Assembly (NCBI GenBank): GCA_963514005.1
Contig: OY740808.1
Coordinates: 23,746,001 to 23,810,000 of the forward strand
Length of the DNA stretch: 64,000 nt
Source: Raja brachyura
Taxonomy: Eukaryota
Reading direction: 5' to 3'
Below are positions 30,481 through 38,717 of this stretch, piece after piece (position 1 is the first letter of the stretch; each line of letters starts with the position of its first letter). Position numbers and translations under genes: made by a program. The notes beneath the pieces are model-generated. The model ran no database searches, had not been told where the DNA came from, and saw only the letters and a list, made by a program, of their open reading frames with translations.

Positions 30481-31313
30481 TTCCTAGATTCACAGTTGGA
30501 ATTTGGAGTGGAAGCCACAGCATTTCCCTTGTATCTCAGTAGATACAAGTCAAAATTCAAATAACCTGCTAACCAATTATCCAAAGATCGTGATGGCTCA
30601 GGATCTGGATCACTAGGCTGTTATTCCTGCATTTCTGTTACCAAACTAGGACCACTGCGTGTTAAAAGATGTGCAGAGATCCCACATTGATTCCCACATT
30701 CCCTTTAACACATCGGAGCCTTTCTTTCCACTCACCTTTTAATAAACTATGACCCTAGATCCTGCACACACTTTGATCACATCGATGCTGTGGTTCCAGG
30801 GCCGGCCGTAGGAGGTGCGGAGCCCAATTAGGAATAATTTTGGTGAGCCCCAGGTTCCCAGCCAGGGTCTGTAGAATCATATAAATAAAGTCTATTATAG
30901 ACTTTAAATATCTATGGTAGAATGGAAAGTAATCAAAATGTGCGCTTAAAACGTGCATGCGACTTAATGGACCAAACAGATCTAAGCTACATTTTAATAT
31001 AAAATTGCATACATGTAAGCCTACAAGTAACAAACAAAATGTGTAGATCACCTCTGAAAAGTACATAATTACAATACCACTTGTTTTAGTGACTGAAATG
31101 AAAAAAGAAAATGTAATTAACTAGATCCTGAAAAACCAATAACCATTGGCGAAAAACCAGTCGAGGCATTACATTTTGGTTTTCAGCCCCATCCTACCCT
31201 TTGGGCTTCTACCCCATCCTAACTTAGTTGTGTGTGTGTGTGTGGGAGGGATGGAGAGAAGAGAGGGAAGGGAGTGAGAGGGCCGGCGGCAGGAGCGGAT
31301 GCCGGGGTCTGGG

Positions 31314-31351
31314 CTATACTTTTAAGGATCATTTCTATAGTCTGTGACTAG
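31314..31351 (+). ncRNA. U3: U3 snoRNA 5' fragment (about nt 5-42, boxes A' and A); retroposed, not a complete gene
   Basis: CTATACTTTTAAGGATCATTTCTATAGTCTGTGACTAG versus recalled human U3 CTATACTTTCAGGGATCATTTCTATAGTGTGTTACTAG, 34/38 identical by eye. Confidence 0.85.
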
Positions 31352-31399
31352 ATCGCTTCTCGGCCTTTTGGCTAAGATCAAGTGTAGTATCTGTTCTTA
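31352..31399 (+). ncRNA. U2: U2 snRNA 5' fragment (nt 1-48, including branch-point recognition sequence GTAGTA); not a complete gene
   Basis: ATCGCTTCTCGGCCTTTTGGCTAAGATCAAGTGTAGTATCTGTTCTTA is the canonical U2 5' end; match stops after nt 48. Confidence 0.95.
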
Positions 31400-31568
31400 C
31401 ACTTGAAGGAGTGAAAGAGACTATCTGTTCTTTTTAGAACGGTTCTGGCGGTCCCTTGGGGACAAGGGCCGTGGACTGCGGAGCGAACTGGGAGACGAGG
31501 AGTTGTGGCTGCAGGCTTAGAGGTGGATCCATGCTGGTTGGGTAACCAACCTAACACCTTTAGCCACA

Positions 31569-33225
31569 ATGTCAGCAGGAGCAGGAGTACAGGGTATTCG
31601 CAATACCCTGAGAATAAGCGTGAAGGACATCAGCGAGGGGACCCTCTTTTCAAGAGACCTGTTTGTCAAGAAGGTCTTGCTAGGGGCCCTCAAATTTGAG
31701 GCTAAGGACATCTACTGCCTCCAGGATTTCCCGGGTAACGGATATTTCGACGTTACCTTCAAGTATCCGACGGGATGGCAGAAGGTGATGGAGGACTTTC
31801 GGGAGAGGGGGAATGAAGCTCCGCTGTCGCTGCTCAAAGTGCAGCCGCTCTTCACCCTCCCCACCCAGAAGGAAAGGTTGATCACCGTGCATATGTTCAA
31901 CCCACATGTGCTGGTAGTCGATGTCCTCACGTTCCTTGCTCGCTACGTTGAGGGAACAGGGAACTGTGTGGACGTGAAGGACATGCATGGAATTTGGACA
32001 AGCAAGAGGCAAATCAAGGTGAAGCTGAGGGTGGACAAAGACGGAGAAATTGTCCACCCCCCCTCGGTTTTCGCGATTGGAGGAAACCGAGCTACCTCAG
32101 CTACGTAGGGCAACCCAGGCTGTGCAGGAAATGCAACAAGCCTGGGCATGTGATGGCCCAATGTACAGCAGTTGTATGCAAAAACTGCAAGACAGAGGGC
32201 CACGAGACAGTCAGGCCAGTAAGAACTGCAACCTGTGCGGGGAGGCAGGCCACCTTTACAGGGCTTGCCCTAAAAGAGCCTGCACTTATGCACAGGCGAC
32301 AAGAGGGGCTGCTGCCAGCACCCCCAAGGTGGGCGAAGCACCCCCCAACACTACCAAGGCCCCAGCAGAGAAAGGAAACGCAGATGAGGACAGCCCAACC
32401 ACCTTGAAGCCCCAAGTGCCAGAAGGAGACGCCCAGCATCTTGCCCAGGAGGGAGAGTCAATGGAGGAGGAGGAACTGAAGGAGAAGTGGACTACAGTGT
32501 CGTATAAGAAGCCGAAGGTTCAGCCCAAGGAGCCGAGGCCGCAAAGGACTGGTAAGTCTAAAAGCAAACAACAAAAAAGATGTCTTTCTATTACAGAAGG
32601 CAGCAATCTCTCCTGTTCGTCGGAGGATGAGGCGACCGGGAAGTCCCAACGAGGGAGACAGAGGAGGAAAACGGGGGAAGAGAAGAGAGAGGCCACGACG
32701 ATCACGACCCGGCCCCAGGAGACCGAGAACAGAGAAGCGGCGGAAGGGCCACAACCCCAGGACACCAGGAGCAGTGCAGCGGTCGAGGGGCCCCAGGCCC
32801 AGGACATCGGGAGCAGTGCAACGGTCGAGGGGCTCCAGCCCCTGGAGACAGGGATCATCACAGCGGCCAATGGGCCACAGCTCCGGGCAACCGGGAGCAG
32901 CGCAACGGCCGAAAGGCCCCAGCTCCGGGCGACCGGGAGCATTGCAGCGGCCAATGGGCCCCAGCTCCGGGTGACCGGGAGCAGCACAAAGGCCGTTGGG
33001 CCCCAGCTCTGGGCGACCGGGAGCAGTGAACCAGCCACCACGACCCAGCTACAGGAGACGGAGGAAGCCGTGTGCCCGAAAGGGGGTGGAACGAGAAGGC
33101 CCCCCTCAACGACACCATTGGCTGCGCCACCAGAAACCCACCTCATCGCTGGATTCCTGAGCCCAGGAAAGCTGAGGCAATTCACCGAAACGGTGGGAAT
33201 GAGGGGACACGAAAACGGTCAGTGA
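31569..33225 (+). pseudogene. Tx1/Keno ORF1 (gag-like nucleic-acid-binding protein), frameshifted
   Basis: ORFs 31569..32108, 31994..32407 and 32050..33225 join into one protein with CRKCNKPGHVMAQC, CKNCKTEGH and CNLCGEAGHLYRAC knuckles. Confidence 0.85.
32746..33039 (+). repeat. About seven 42-bp coding tandem repeats (GPQLRATGSSATAE-like) in Keno ORF1
   Basis: 14-aa periodicity in ORF 32050..33225. Confidence 0.85.
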
Positions 33226-33236
33226 CTCTAAAGACA

Positions 33237-36200
33237 ATGGAGCTCAAACTGGCATCTTTAAACGTGCGCAGTATAAAGAGCACTGCGCGATGTGTGAACG
33301 CCTTACAGTACCTGGCCAAGGTCAAGGCAGATGTGACTTTTATTCAGGAGTGCGGGCTGCCACACCTCCGCTGCTATCGGAGGTGGTCGCGATGGTGGCC
33401 CCACGGATTGTCGGTGTGGTCGGGGGGCAATGACTGTCGTGCTTCCGGCCTGGGGATTTTGCTGCGGGGAGGGAACTTCGCCATCAATGAGGTTAGGGAG
33501 GTGGTTGGGGGGCGGCTCCTTGTGGTGGATGTTATGTACCGTGACTCTCCGCTCCGGCTGATTAATGTGTATGCCTCACCCACGCAGAGCAAGCGGCTGG
33601 CCGTTCTCCAGCAGCTCCCAGTGCTGCTGGCCACGTCCCGGCAGCTCGTTTTGGCCGGTGACTTCAACTGCATCATTGATGCGGCTGGACGATCCGGCAG
33701 TGCCGACAGCAGACTGGACAGCACGTCCAAGTTCCTGAGGGATATGGTAAAAGATGCAAAGCTGCGCGATGCCTTCAGCGACCCTGCAGGCGGGTCCCAG
33801 CCACGGTTCACCTGGTCGAGATCGGACGGTTTAGCCTGATCTCGGATAGACTTTGTCTTCACGACGAAGGCCGCCACGGTGAGACACACTGACCTCACGC
33901 TGGTGTTCTTCTCCGACCACTGCCTCCTTCAGGCTTCCTGTCACCTACAGGAGGACCGGAAGGCAGGCAGAGGGACGTGGAAGTTAAACATGAAGCTGTT
34001 GACCACAGAGAACATCGAAGAGCTAAAGAGGGACTACGCATGTTGGAGAACGGTGAAGCCCCTCTTTGACTCCCCCACACTCTGGTGGGAAGCAACCAAG
34101 GAGAACATTAAGAGGTTCTTCATAAGTAAAGGGGTTCAAAGAGCAAGACAGAGTCAGAGGGAATTGTGCCAACTCCAGACAGATTTGCAACAACTGCTCC
34201 TCCTGCAGTCGAGAGGGGTGGACGTGAAGGAGGAACTTAGAGACGTGAAGGACCGGCAAGCTCGGCTCTTTACCTCTGAATCCTCCAAGATCATCTTCCG
34301 ATCCAGGGTCCGCCATGTGGAGCAGGATGAGACGTGCTCACGTTTCTTCTTCCATAAGGTTCACAGGGGGAGCTCTGTGATGAACAGCCTTAGGGAGGAG
34401 GACGGCTCGGTAGCATCCTCACACACAGACATGCTAAGGATCTGCAAATCCTTTTACACAGATTTGTATGACCAAAAGGCCATAGACAGCACCTCCTCCC
34501 AGAACTTCCTGTCCTCGATCACGGAGGTCTTGGAGGACAGCAAGCGGGAGAGTCTGGACCAACCACTGACCCTAGAGGAGCTGACTGGCTCCATCCGTTC
34601 CTTTGACTCGGGTAAAACTCCCGGAAGCGATGGCTTACCGGCCGAGTTGTATTCGGCTCTGTGGGACTGGATGGGCCCGGACCTGCTAGAAGTGTACAAC
34701 GACATGCTTCTAGCTGGTAGCATGTCAGACTCCATGAGGAAGGGCAACATCACCCTAATCTACAAGCAGAAGGGGGAGATGAAGGACATAAAGAATTGGA
34801 GACCCATAACGCTCTTGAATGTAGACTACAAGATCCTGTCTAAGGCCATCGCCAACCGGGTCAAGTCTGCTCTGGGACAGGTGATCCACCCGGACCAAAC
34901 TTGTGCTGTACCTGGCAGGAAAATCTCAGACAGCCTAGCGCTGCTGAGAGATACCATCGCCTACGTGCAGGACAGACGGGTGGATGCCTGCCTAGTCAGC
35001 TTGGACCAGGAGAAGGCCTTTGACAGGATTTCGCACACGTACATGAGGGACGTGCTCTCCAAAATGGGTTTTGGGGAGGGAATCAGGAATTGGATCAATC
35101 TGCTCTACACCGACATCCGTAGTGCAGTCCAAATCAATGGGTGGGAATCAGACAGTTTCCCTGTAAGGTCTGGAGTCAGGCAGGGTTGCCCTCTCTCTCC
35201 TGTCTTGTTTGTCTGCTGTATTGAACCCTTTGCCGAATCCATCAGGAAGGATGCGAGCATTAGAGGAGTGACACTGCCCGGCAGTGGGGGCATTCAAGTA
35301 AAGACCTCCCTGTACATGGACGATGTCGCTGTCTTCTGCTCGTTAGTATCTGCGACCAGTTTGAGTCGGCCACGGGAGCCAGGGTGAACCGCAGGAAGAG
35401 CGAGGCCATGCTCTTTGGCAACTGGCCCGACAGATCTTCCGTCCCCTTCACCATCAAGCCTGACTTCTTGAAGGTGCTGGGGATCTGGTTCGGGGGGGCT
35501 GAGGCGTGTAACAAGAATTGGCTGGAGCGGATAGCCAGGGTGGGGAAGAAGCTGGAGCTGTGGAGGCAACGCTCCCTCTCCATAACGGGAAAGAATTTGG
35601 TCATCAGGTGTGAGGTGCTCTCGAGCCTGCTGTACTTGGCACAGGTGTGGCCTGTCCCCCCTTCCTACGCCACAGGGATCACCCGGGCCGTCTTCCAGTT
35701 CATCTGGGGGTCGAGGATGGACCGGGTGCGACGGGCCACAATGTACAAGTCAGCAGACAACGGGGGTAAAAGCGTGCCCAACGTCGCCCTCATCCTGATG
35801 GCCACCTTCGTGTGTGGCTGCATCAGGCGGAGTGTAGAGCCAAGGCACGTGGGCACCAAGTGTCACTACTTGCTGAGGTTCTACCTGTCCCCGGTGTTGC
35901 GAAGGATGGGCCTGGCGCAGATGCCACGCAATGTGCCAGTCAGCTGGTCACTGCCACCCCATCTGTCGTCTGTGGAAAGGTTCTTCCGGACCAGCACCTT
36001 TGACCACATGTCCATCGGGCAGTGGTCAGCACAGAATGTCCTGCAGGCACTGCAGGGAAAAGACTCGATGGACCCGGTGGCGTGGTTCCCTGAGCAGACT
36101 GCCCAGCTTGTCTGGTAAAATGCCTCATCGCCAGAACTCACCAACAAGCACCAAGACCTGGCTTGGCTGGCGGTGAGGGGAGCCCTCCCAGTCAGATCCT

Positions 36201-36620
36201 TCCTGCACCGTCGGAACCTCACTACCAGCGCACGCTGCCCTCGGGACGGCTGCTATGGAGTGGAGACGGTTGCCCACCTCTTTGCAGAGTGTGGGATTTG
36301 CCCAAAGAGTCTGGAGAAAAATGCAAGGGTCCCTGGTACGCTTTATTCCAAACAGCTCCGTCACAGAGGACTCTGTGATTTACGGACTGTTCCCAGGGAC
36401 ACATTCAGAGACTGACATCAAGTGCTGCTGGAGGGTCATCAACTCGGTGAAAGACGCTCTGTGGTCTGCCCGAGCGTTGTTCACCACCCAGCAGAGCGAG
36501 ATGTCCGTCGGGGAATGTTGCCGACTGGCCCACTGCAGACTGCAGGAGTACGTACTGAGGGACGCACTGAAGCTCGGTGCAGCCAACGCCAAGGCTCGGT
36601 GGGGGAGGGCCACAGTCTAA
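33237..36620 (+). pseudogene. Tx1/Keno ORF2 (APE endonuclease, reverse transcriptase, zinc finger) with stops and frameshifts
   Basis: LASLNVR, FIQEC, LAGDFN, SDH (APE); WRPITLLNVDYK, DQEKAFD, GVRQGCPLSP, YMDD (RT); CPRDGC..ETVAHLFAEC; TGA at 33837, frameshift near 35340, TAA at 36116. Confidence 0.92.
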
Positions 36621-37067
36621 GGTCCTTCCGCTGCTGGACATGGGGGGCACTGTATGGTGGAGACGCCCCTCAAAATAAGGGAAGGTATCCCATGCCGGGG
36701 GGCCACATGAGTGGCACGGGTGGGGGATCAATTCGTGAAATTTGAAAATTTTGAAAAATGTATAAAGACTGTATGGAGACATTTGTATAGCCTCCGAAAA
36801 TGTTGGATGGTTTTTTGTTTTTTTTTCGCACGGTTGATGTATTGTATATATTTATTACTCGAATAAAGTCTATTTTGAAATTTTTAAAAAAGGGTCTGGG
36901 CGGACGGGTGTGAGCTGAGGCCGAGGTTTGTAAACATCGCTCCAACCCCCGACCCGGCACTCTCTGTATTGTTCACCGCGTTTCTCCGGGGAGAGAGAGG
37001 GGTGGAGCCGGGGCACGGCGATTGGAGGGGTGGGAGCGCTGCGCCAGGACCGTGAAGGAATGACCCA

Positions 37068-38012
37068 CCTCCCCCTTCTCCATTCCCCCCCCCTTCTCCA
37101 TTCCCCCCCCCTTCTCCATTCCCCCCCCCTTCTCCATTCCCCCCCTTCTCCATTCCCCCCCCTTCTCCATTCCCCCCCCTTCTCCATTCCCCCCCCTTCT
37201 CCATTCCCCCCCTTCTCCATTCCCCCCCTTCTCCATTCCCCCCCTTCTCCATTCCCCCCCTTCTCCATTCCCCCCCTTCTCCATTCCCCCCCTTCTCCAT
37301 TCCCCCCCCTTCTCCATTCCCCCCCCTTCTCCATTCCCCCCCTTCTCCATTCCCCCCCTTCTCCATTCCCCCCCCTTCTCCATTCCCCCCCTTCTCCATT
37401 CCCCCCCCTTCTCCATTCCCCCCCCTTCTCCATTCCCCCCCCTTCTCCATTCCCCCCCTTCTCCATTCCCCCCCCTTCTCCATTCCCCCCCCTTCTCCAT
37501 TCCCCCCCTTCTCCATTCCCCCCCCTCTCCATTCCCCCCCCTCTCCATTCCCCCCCCTCTCCATTCCCCCCCCCTCTCCATTCCCTCCCCCCTCTCCATT
37601 CCCTCCCCCCTCTCCATCCCCCCCCTCTCCATCCCCCCCCTCTCCATCCCCCCCCTCTCCATCCCCCCCTCTCCATTCCCCCCCCTCTCCATTCCCCCCC
37701 TCTCCATTCCCCCCCTCTCCATTCCCCCCCTTCTCCATTCCCCCCCTTCTCCATTCCCCCCCTTCTCCATTCCCCCCCTTCTCCATTCCCCCCCTTCTCC
37801 ATTTCCCCCCCCCTTCTCCATTTCCCCCCCCTTCTCCATTCCCCCCCCCTTCTCCATTCCCCCCCCCTTCTCCATTCCCCTCCCCTTCTCCATTCCCCCC
37901 CCCTTCTCCATTTCCCCCCCCCTTCTCCATTTCCCCCCCCTTCTCCATTTCCCCCCCCTTCTCCATTTCCCCCCCCTTCTCCATTTCCCCCCCCTTCTCC
38001 ATTCCCCCCTCC
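37068..38012. repeat. Polypyrimidine/polypurine minisatellite, unit about CTTCTCCATTCCCCCC(C)n (17-20 bp), ~950 bp
   Basis: Directly visible; produces the spurious G/E/K-rich and P-rich ORFs. Confidence 0.97.
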
Positions 38013-38717
38013 TCCGTCTACCTCTTTCTTCCCCCTTCACCCCTCTACTCTCTCTTCCCCCTTCCACCCGGGGTAGATCTACCCGAGCCGAGAATAGATT
38101 ACTCTAGCGTGGGGCCCCCTTAGGTGTGGGGCCCAATTCGTTCAATTGGCTTACGGCCGGCCCTGTGTGGTTCCCACACTCCATTAAAACTTAAGGGCCT
38201 AAAGTGTTGGAGTAACTCAGCAGATCGGCCAGCATCTCTGGAGAACATGGACGTTTTGGGTTCGGTCCTTTCTTCAGATTGGTGAGCCTGAAAAAAGGTC
38301 CTGAACCGAAATGTCCATGTTCTCCGGAGATGCTGCCCGACCTGCTGAGTTACTCCAGCACTTTATGTTCTGCGGTGTAAACCACCATCTGCAGTTCCTG
38401 GTTTCTCGATGAAATCGTATCTGGTTCGCTTGAGAATTTATTATATTATCTATAAAATCATAAATAAAACTGATTTAAATGTGCTTTTAAATATTAATTT
38501 GAATTTAATAGACCAAAAAATCTAGCAATTCAGCACTAAAGTCTCAACAGTGTTGGCTTAAAAGTGTTTTACTGTGGACATGACTCATTGGCCTACGAAT
38601 GTATTGCAATGCATATGTACATAGCTTAGCATTTCCCTTAGTATTATTAAGCAAATATTAATCTGAGAATATTATTACATAATGACCAGACCAGTTCCAT
38701 TTGTTGTTATATTCCAG

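What the first reader, a model, noticed from the sequence alone, without database searches (positions are those of the whole stretch)
31305..36901. Three-part U3 snoRNA - U2 snRNA - Tx1/Keno retrotransposon chimera inside one target-site duplication
Seen: the TSD GGGTCTGGGC (31305-31314 and 36892-36901) encloses three seamlessly joined parts. These are 38 nt matching the U3 snoRNA 5' domain (31314-31351, 34/38 to recalled human U3, first C shared with the TSD), U2 snRNA nt 1-48 (31352-31399), and a full-length Tx1-clade element ending in AATAAA plus A6. Known: Keno Tx1 elements target U2 genes, and mammalian L1 makes U6-L1 and U3-L1 chimeras by template switching during target-primed reverse transcription. 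Inference: the Keno RT copied its own RNA, which carried a U2 head from a donor copy inside a U2 gene. At that 5' end it jumped onto U3 RNA before integrating. A double small-RNA-headed chimera made by a Tx1 element in a cartilaginous fish is not something I recognise as described. It would imply the Keno RNP meets other capped U-RNAs.
Basis: partly seen in the sequence, partly recalled or inferred. Interest (0 to 1): 0.9.

Follow-up and report, generated by a model that had tools for sequence, protein, structure and literature searches.

The report
Tx1 retrotransposon collecting snRNA 5' heads
This jumping-gene copy carries the first 43 bases of U3 RNA and 48 bases of U2 RNA at its front; it belongs to a family that keeps landing about 35-45 bases inside several small-RNA genes and keeps gaining their front ends, which may be how it borrows a promoter.

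Summary
Confirmed, but not a one-off. The U3 piece is 41/41 identical to this genome's U3 (nt 3-43) and lies inside a real 10-nt TSD; 176 empty host sites exist. The U2 1-48 head is a fixed family trait (110 exact copies). A second head is common: of 89 non-duplicate copies, 38 carry U1 and 4 carry U3; U5, U4 and U8 heads also occur. Seven U3-headed loci have seven different junctions. The family inserts in sense at +32 to +43 of U1 (41 tail matches), U2 (6, the Keno site), U3 (2) and U5 (1) genes; controls at U6 and further into U1 gave 0. Intact copies sit directly behind U1 promoters, and heads usually start with an extra G (U1 12/17, U2 23/31). Best reading (0.5): heads are 5' flanks of donors transcribed from host promoters. 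Rival (0.38): template jumps onto short capped RNAs. Stacked U1/U2 heads (SINEU) and triple chimeras are published; position-like targeting of several Pol II snRNA genes was not found in my searches. This scan noted similar U1-stacked and U1/U4-headed elements in other genomes. Junctions were not checked in reads.

The parts
30797..38165 (.). Host non-autonomous DNA transposon (hAT-like): 14-nt terminal inverted repeats, 8-nt TSD at 30789-30796 and 38166-38173
   Evidence: 176 empty sites in the genome
31305..31314 (+). Left TSD; its last 3 nt also match U3 nt 3-5
31312..31352 (+). U3 snoRNA nt 3-43, 41/41 identical to this genome's U3 genes
31351..31351 (+). G before U2 nt 1: U3 nt 42, and also the extra G seen in 23 of 31 copies that start at U2 nt 1
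31352..31399 (+). U2 snRNA nt 1-48, the fixed head of the family
31400..31568 (+). 5' UTR; holds a second U2-target-like motif at 31423-31433
31569..33225 (+). ORF1 (ZCCHC3-type RNA-binding domains, CCHC knuckles), two frameshifts; intact relatives about 566 aa
33237..36620 (+). ORF2 (APE endonuclease, RT, zf-RVT), two stops and two frameshifts; intact relatives 1135 aa
36621..36891 (+). 3' UTR with AATAAA at 36862-36867 and A6 at 36886-36891
   Evidence: 2146 exact tail motifs in the genome
36892..36901 (+). Right TSD

Best explanation
Serial promoter capture. This Keno-like Tx1 family nicks DNA about 32-43 nt downstream of the transcription start of strong Pol II promoters (U1, U2, U3, U5 genes; also an LTR). 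A full-length copy landing there is transcribed from the host's upstream promoter, so its RNA begins with the cap, the host RNA's first 35-55 nt and any older heads. Daughters carry that stack elsewhere. The window copy is a daughter of a U2-headed copy that had inserted into a U3 gene near +43. Shown: the targeting window, promoter-backed intact copies in U1 genes, and heads moved as a unit from an LTR donor. Inferred: transcription from snRNA promoters and the U3 donor itself.
For: Sense insertions at U1 +33 to +43 (41 matches, control 0), U2 +34 to +39 (6), U3 +37 and +41, U5 +32; none at U6 or further into U1. 13 of 32 U1 5' ends with the gene-like upstream AGC are interrupted, with 5' junctions at U1 nt 34-57 in most; U1 heads end at 31-62, median 47; median nick 40 plus median TSD 11.5 predicts about 50. 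L270, L272, L273 are intact-ORF copies directly behind U1 promoters; L270 and L269 show a second head created by insertion. L233 carries 13 nt of L232's LTR flank inside its own TSD and the two are sisters (0.98). L152 and L235 share a linker and a clade. A U2 head ending at nt 49-50 was gained again on a U1-headed copy, as a Keno-site insertion would give. Extra G at -1: U1 12/17, U2 23/31, U3 2/2, against 0/5 poly(A) U1 retrocopies.
Against: No U3-promoter donor with a full-length element among 12 exact U3 5' loci, no U2-promoter donor (11 intact genes only), and only one U1-promoter copy with a U2 head, which is internally broken. All seven U3 junctions differ. Near-identical young bodies carry different U1 junctions and identical junction classes are not monophyletic, so many short-lived donors are needed. 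The three U1-promoter donors have at most one variant-matched daughter among 27 other U1-headed loci. That an snRNA promoter yields a 5.5-kb polyadenylated RNA was not tested; my recall of that literature is mixed.
Confidence: 0.5

Rival explanations
1. Per-insertion template jump onto short capped nascent RNAs. The RT reaches the cap of the U2-headed RNA and jumps to a 30-60 nt m7G-capped 5' fragment of U3, U1 or another Pol II RNA (paused or prematurely released). The same affinity for such RNAs would draw the particle to +32..+43 of these genes.
For: Seven of seven U3 junctions unique and spread over the tree; young clade with a different head on nearly every copy; matching donors absent; microhomology at most junctions; needs one event, not two; Kojima 2015 drew the template-switch conclusion for 26 SINEU-2 copies with U1 extensions.
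Against: No evidence here that such fragments are in the particle. Head ends match the 5' junctions of real gene insertions. Stacking by insertion is directly seen (L269, L270) and multi-head RNAs were moved as units (L232 to L233).
Confidence: 0.38
2. Internal switch onto mature U3 snoRNA met by the particle.
For: Human U3/L1 chimeras are sense and mostly 3'-truncated (passages, bioRxiv 10.1101/2025.02.02.635956; PMC4476161). Head frequency U1 > U3 > U5 roughly follows RNA abundance (recalled).
Against: Heads from unrelated RNAs all end at about 31-62 nt. The extra G suggests a monomethyl cap; a trimethyl cap should template poorly (inference from recalled chemistry; control only 0/5). 14 of 39 U1 heads are of a variant with no intact promoter-bearing gene in the assembly. 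No U6 head seen, whereas U6 dominates L1 chimeras.
Confidence: 0.07
3. Two separate events or an assembly artefact: a truncated U3 retrocopy and the element inserted one after the other, or a mis-join.
For: Junctions were not checked in reads.
Against: One TSD encloses all parts; the host site is otherwise intact in 176 copies; six further U3-headed loci, three with clear TSDs outside the head.
Confidence: 0.05

Closest known systems
Keno (Tx1 clade; Kojima and Fujiwara 2004, not held; seen through passages of PMC4640811, PMC6136364, PMC4494074)
   Same: APE-type Tx1-like element; six tails are followed by U2 from nt 34-39, two by the exact reported 3' target; a 10-nt TSD there gives a U2 1-48 head.
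   Different: Not U2-specific: U1 is hit more often, U3 and U5 too, and most of about 2100 tails lie elsewhere.
Crocodilian SINEU and Tx1-Mar (Kojima 2015, PMC4494074, main text read)
   Same: Keno-related Tx1 families with U1 or U2 heads; recurrent U1/U2 additions with varied junctions and microhomology; 5' extensions from flanks.
   Different: Here an autonomous element, with U3, U5, U4 and U8 heads, and with insertions in the snRNA genes themselves. The paper reports Mariner targets and leaves transcription open. Its supplements could not be read.
Mammalian snRNA-L1 chimeras and triple chimeras (passages of PMC4476161 and bioRxiv 10.1101/2025.02.02.635956; Gogvadze 2005, 2007 as cited there)
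   Same: Sense small-RNA piece fused 5' of a LINE inside one TSD; truncated U3 and U5; three-part forms exist.
   Different: There U6 makes up 71%, chimeras are rare and do not propagate. Here about 45% of full-length copies carry a second snRNA head, none U6, and some stacks were copied onward.
Dictyostelium TRE5/TRE3 (abstract of PMC5006619)
   Same: Non-LTR elements that insert at a set distance from unrelated small-RNA genes.
   Different: Those flank Pol III tRNA genes and leave them intact; this one enters Pol II snRNA genes downstream of the start.
Dada-U1 (passages of PMC3706591, PMC8869645)
   Same: Inserts in U1 genes.
   Different: A DNA transposon with one sequence-defined site.

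Membership tests
Tx1 clade | ORF2 with APE endonuclease, RT and C-terminal zinc finger; ORF1 with CCHC knuckles | tested here: met
Tx1 clade | Poly(A) tail and TSD | tested here: met
   median TSD 11.5 nt (n=50)
Tx1 clade | RT phylogeny with named Tx1 references | not testable with these tools
   36 hits, best 45-48% identity, none named Tx1 or Keno; the label rests on architecture and target site
Keno | Insertion about 37 nt into U2 with the reported 3' target | tested here: met
   6 matches, 5 on the U2-cluster contig, 2 at the exact site given in PMC6136364
Keno | Specificity for U2 genes | tested here: not met
   6 U2 against 41 U1, 2 U3, 1 U5 and 2146 tails
Keno | Clusters with Keno RTs | not testable with these tools
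   no reference sequence available
SINEU / Tx1-Mar | snRNA-derived head with recurrent 5' additions | tested here: met
SINEU / Tx1-Mar | Preference for Mariner-N4 | not tested
   other repeat hot spots were seen but not compared with Mariner-N4
U6/L1-type chimera | Complete small RNA joined to a 5'-truncated LINE, U6 dominant | tested here: not met
   heads are 5' fragments on full-length elements; no U6 head seen in 100 copies viewed
Position-specific integrators (TRE5-like) | Set distance from the start of genes with unrelated sequence | tested here: met
   +32 to +43 in U1, U2, U3, U5; 0 further into U1; U3 and U5 rest on 2 and 1 events
Position-specific integrators (TRE5-like) | Tethering to a transcription factor | not testable with these tools
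   needs protein interaction or profiling experiments

The most novel reading that the evidence does not exclude
A vertebrate LINE that has widened Keno's U2 target into a position rule: it homes to the promoter-proximal zone (about +32 to +45, where Pol II pauses) of strong Pol II promoters, lives on borrowed snRNA and LTR promoters, and records its passage as a stack of capped 5' heads (U3-U1-U2, U1-U3-U2, U5-U1, U2-U1). This would explain how promoterless snRNA-headed elements such as SINEU are transcribed.
Probability: 0.4. Interest if true: 0.87.

Novelty: new variant of a known kind. Interest (0 to 1): 0.72.

Why it matters
Kojima 2015 left open how elements with U1/U2 heads, which hold no internal promoter, are transcribed. 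This young family (12 of 16 full-length copies examined keep an ORF1 of 540 aa or more and 11 an intact ORF2) has both the heads and copies sitting behind snRNA promoters, so the question can be tested directly. If its targeting follows distance from Pol II start sites, it would be a Pol II counterpart of tRNA-gene-targeting elements, and the heads would map germline start sites and pause zones.

Tried and rejected
One-off chimera: rejected. U3 piece as U2 flank or host sequence: rejected. One propagating U3-U2 subfamily: rejected, junctions differ and the window copy's four nearest neighbours (42-45 differences in 4050 columns) are not U3-headed. RNA ligation as for U6/L1: unlikely, since an extra G persists between head and U2 (inference). 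Head-guided homing by R-loop: considered, about 0.1; truncated copies and four gene types are hit at similar offsets. Two interrupted U1 genes of the commonest head variant were examined for a hidden donor and held only truncated inserts. Same-junction copies are barely closer than others (median 18 against 23 differences), which does not separate the two main models. Rfam gave U4 (21.8 bits) and U8 (26.8 bits) heads only below cut-off and missed U5; U5 was confirmed against the genome's own gene, 35/35. Sequencing runs: none held half the words and no RNA holder was listed; no reads were laid. Homolog search named no Tx1 or Keno protein. Kojima and Fujiwara 2004 and the SINEU supplements were not available.

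Full report
Observation. The 10-mer GGGTCTGGGC occurs only at 31305-31314 and 36892-36901. Rfam finds U2 and U3 between them. This genome's U3 genes match 31312-31352 at 41 of 41 bases (U3 nt 3-43), so three bases are shared with the TSD and two with an extra G plus U2 nt 1. The element has Tx1-like ORFs but is dead: compared with an intact relative, ORF1 has two frameshifts and ORF2 two stops and two frameshifts. The host is a hAT-like repeat with 176 empty sites; the 100 listed hold no U3 piece. Read support was not obtained.

The U2 head is a family trait. An exact U2-to-element junction occurs 110 times; 100 were listed and all 100 examined. I set aside 11 as tandem or segmental duplicates. 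Of the other 89, 38 carry a U1 5' piece and 4 a U3 5' piece in front of U2; 3 carry two such pieces. Where the 3' end was recovered, TSDs usually lie outside the heads. One head is U5 nt 13-47 (35/35); U4 and U8 heads score below Rfam cut-off; other heads are unassigned or come from repeats. A sister subfamily with a fixed U1 1-55 head has 32 loci, with U5, U2 and U1 pieces stacked on some.

U3 heads. An exact U3 5' pattern gave 12 loci: four full-length U3 sequences, one truncated copy, one interrupted gene and six chimeras; a seventh chimera came. The U3 pieces end at nt 35, 35, 37, 41, 43, 46 and 50, and the forms are U3-U2, U3-U1-U2, U1-U3-U2 and U3-U1. TSDs outside the head are clear for four of seven, unresolved for three. 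The copies do not group in a tree of 23 full-length elements. The window copy is one of several independent U3 additions.

Targets. Element tails are followed by U1 sequence 41 times, control 0, mostly in U1 gene clusters; in the 30 loci fetched the flank starts at nt 33-43, median 40. The 41 include tandem and segmental duplicates, so independent events are fewer, and the tail motif is shared with older relatives. L253 shows promoter, U1 1-48, truncated element, poly(A), U1 35-164. U2 is hit six times at nt 34-39, two at the exact Keno target quoted in PMC6136364. U3 is hit at +37 and +41 and U5 at +32. U6 and a window further into U1 gave none. With 2146 tails, my arithmetic puts chance hits in an 11-base window of about 45 U1 genes near 0.0002. 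The four sites share no clear sequence, only distance from the start. A solo LTR is hit at about +36 to +51 from a start inferred from its TATA box and from daughter heads, and another repeat is hit repeatedly at 44-59 nt from the point where one daughter head begins.

Mechanism. Heads often begin with a G that the genes lack: 23/31 for U2, 12/17 for U1, 2/2 for U3, against 25% in flanks and 0/5 in poly(A) U1 retrocopies. I read this as a copied cap, probably monomethyl (inference). So heads were copied from capped RNA starting at +1. Two routes fit. In promoter capture, a full-length copy inserted at about +40 is read from the host promoter. For this: 13 of 32 U1 5' ends with gene-like upstream bases are interrupted (promoters confirmed for seven, absent for one); L270, L272 and L273 are intact copies behind U1 promoters, and L270 and L269 gained a second head by insertion; L233 carries flank of its sister L232 inside its own TSD; head ends match gene-insertion junctions; a U2 head of Keno-site length arose a second time. 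Against: no U3 or U2 donor is in the assembly, young near-identical bodies carry different heads, and same-junction copies are not clades. Those points favour a jump onto short capped nascent RNAs at each insertion. I put capture at 0.5, jumping at 0.38, a switch onto mature U3 at 0.07. Both main routes may operate; for U3 neither is shown.

Known systems. Kojima 2015 (PMC4494074; parts 1-4 of 5 read, main text complete, supplements unavailable) describes Keno-related Tx1 families with U1 or U2 heads, 26 SINEU-2 copies with independent U1 extensions, and transcription as an open question. Triple chimeras and truncated U3/U5-L1 chimeras are reported (passages of PMC4476161 and bioRxiv 10.1101/2025.02.02.635956). 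PMC4640811 (passages, 2015) lists only Keno, Utopia, Dada-U1 and Dada-U6 as snRNA-targeting; a figure legend in PMC4494074 also names a U5 target among Tx1 families. Nine searches showed no U1-targeting Tx1 and no LINE hitting several Pol II snRNA genes at one offset; Repbase entries, the 2004 Keno paper and unseen supplements may hold such cases. The family works like Keno but fails its specificity test, so I call it Keno-like. Earlier notes of this scan mention U1-stacked LINEs and U1/U4-headed Tx1 copies in other genomes; I did not test them.

Verdict. The chimera is real and of a known kind; the family behind it is a new variant, with very frequent head stacking and apparent position-based targeting. 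Interest 0.72.

Noticed in passing
G000 C35:20587100-20603700 (L270, L356); C37:14943600-14956100 (L354, L355); C19:43.65-43.77 Mb: Head-to-tail arrays of the element inside U1 genes: three full-length copies behind one promoter on C35, six truncated copies on C37.
   Followed up: partly
L161, L163, L164, L243: Insertions also lie 120-450 bases downstream of U1 genes, a possible second preferred zone.
   Followed up: no
L208-L218: An abundant repeat carries U2 nt 1 to about 89 at one fixed position; possibly a U2 piece amplified inside another element.
   Followed up: no
L207: A poly(A)-tailed U2 retrocopy sits in the same repeat hot spot as the Tx1 copies, suggesting mobilisation in trans.
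   Followed up: partly
L063 1538-1824: A full-length copy is inserted antisense at the 5' end of a complete 7SL sequence (Pol III).
   Followed up: partly
L105, L120, L121, L128, L132, L140: Six copies share one junction inside an LTR, with no 3' end at the expected distance: one insertion probably multiplied with its host.
   Followed up: partly
L222 7000-8700; G000 C2:59693344: U1 promoter, a 24-nt spacer, U1 1-16, truncated element, then a whole U3 sequence; the same spacer end precedes a dispersed U1-headed copy.
   Followed up: no
window 31423-31433: The 5' UTR repeats the U2 target motif 35 bases after the head.
   Followed up: no
At least six U1 sequence variants differ in stem-loop I; one variant common in heads has no intact promoter-bearing gene in the assembly.
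   Followed up: partly
window 37070-38010: About 950 bases of a 16-17 nt C/T-rich tandem repeat inside the host transposon.
   Followed up: no
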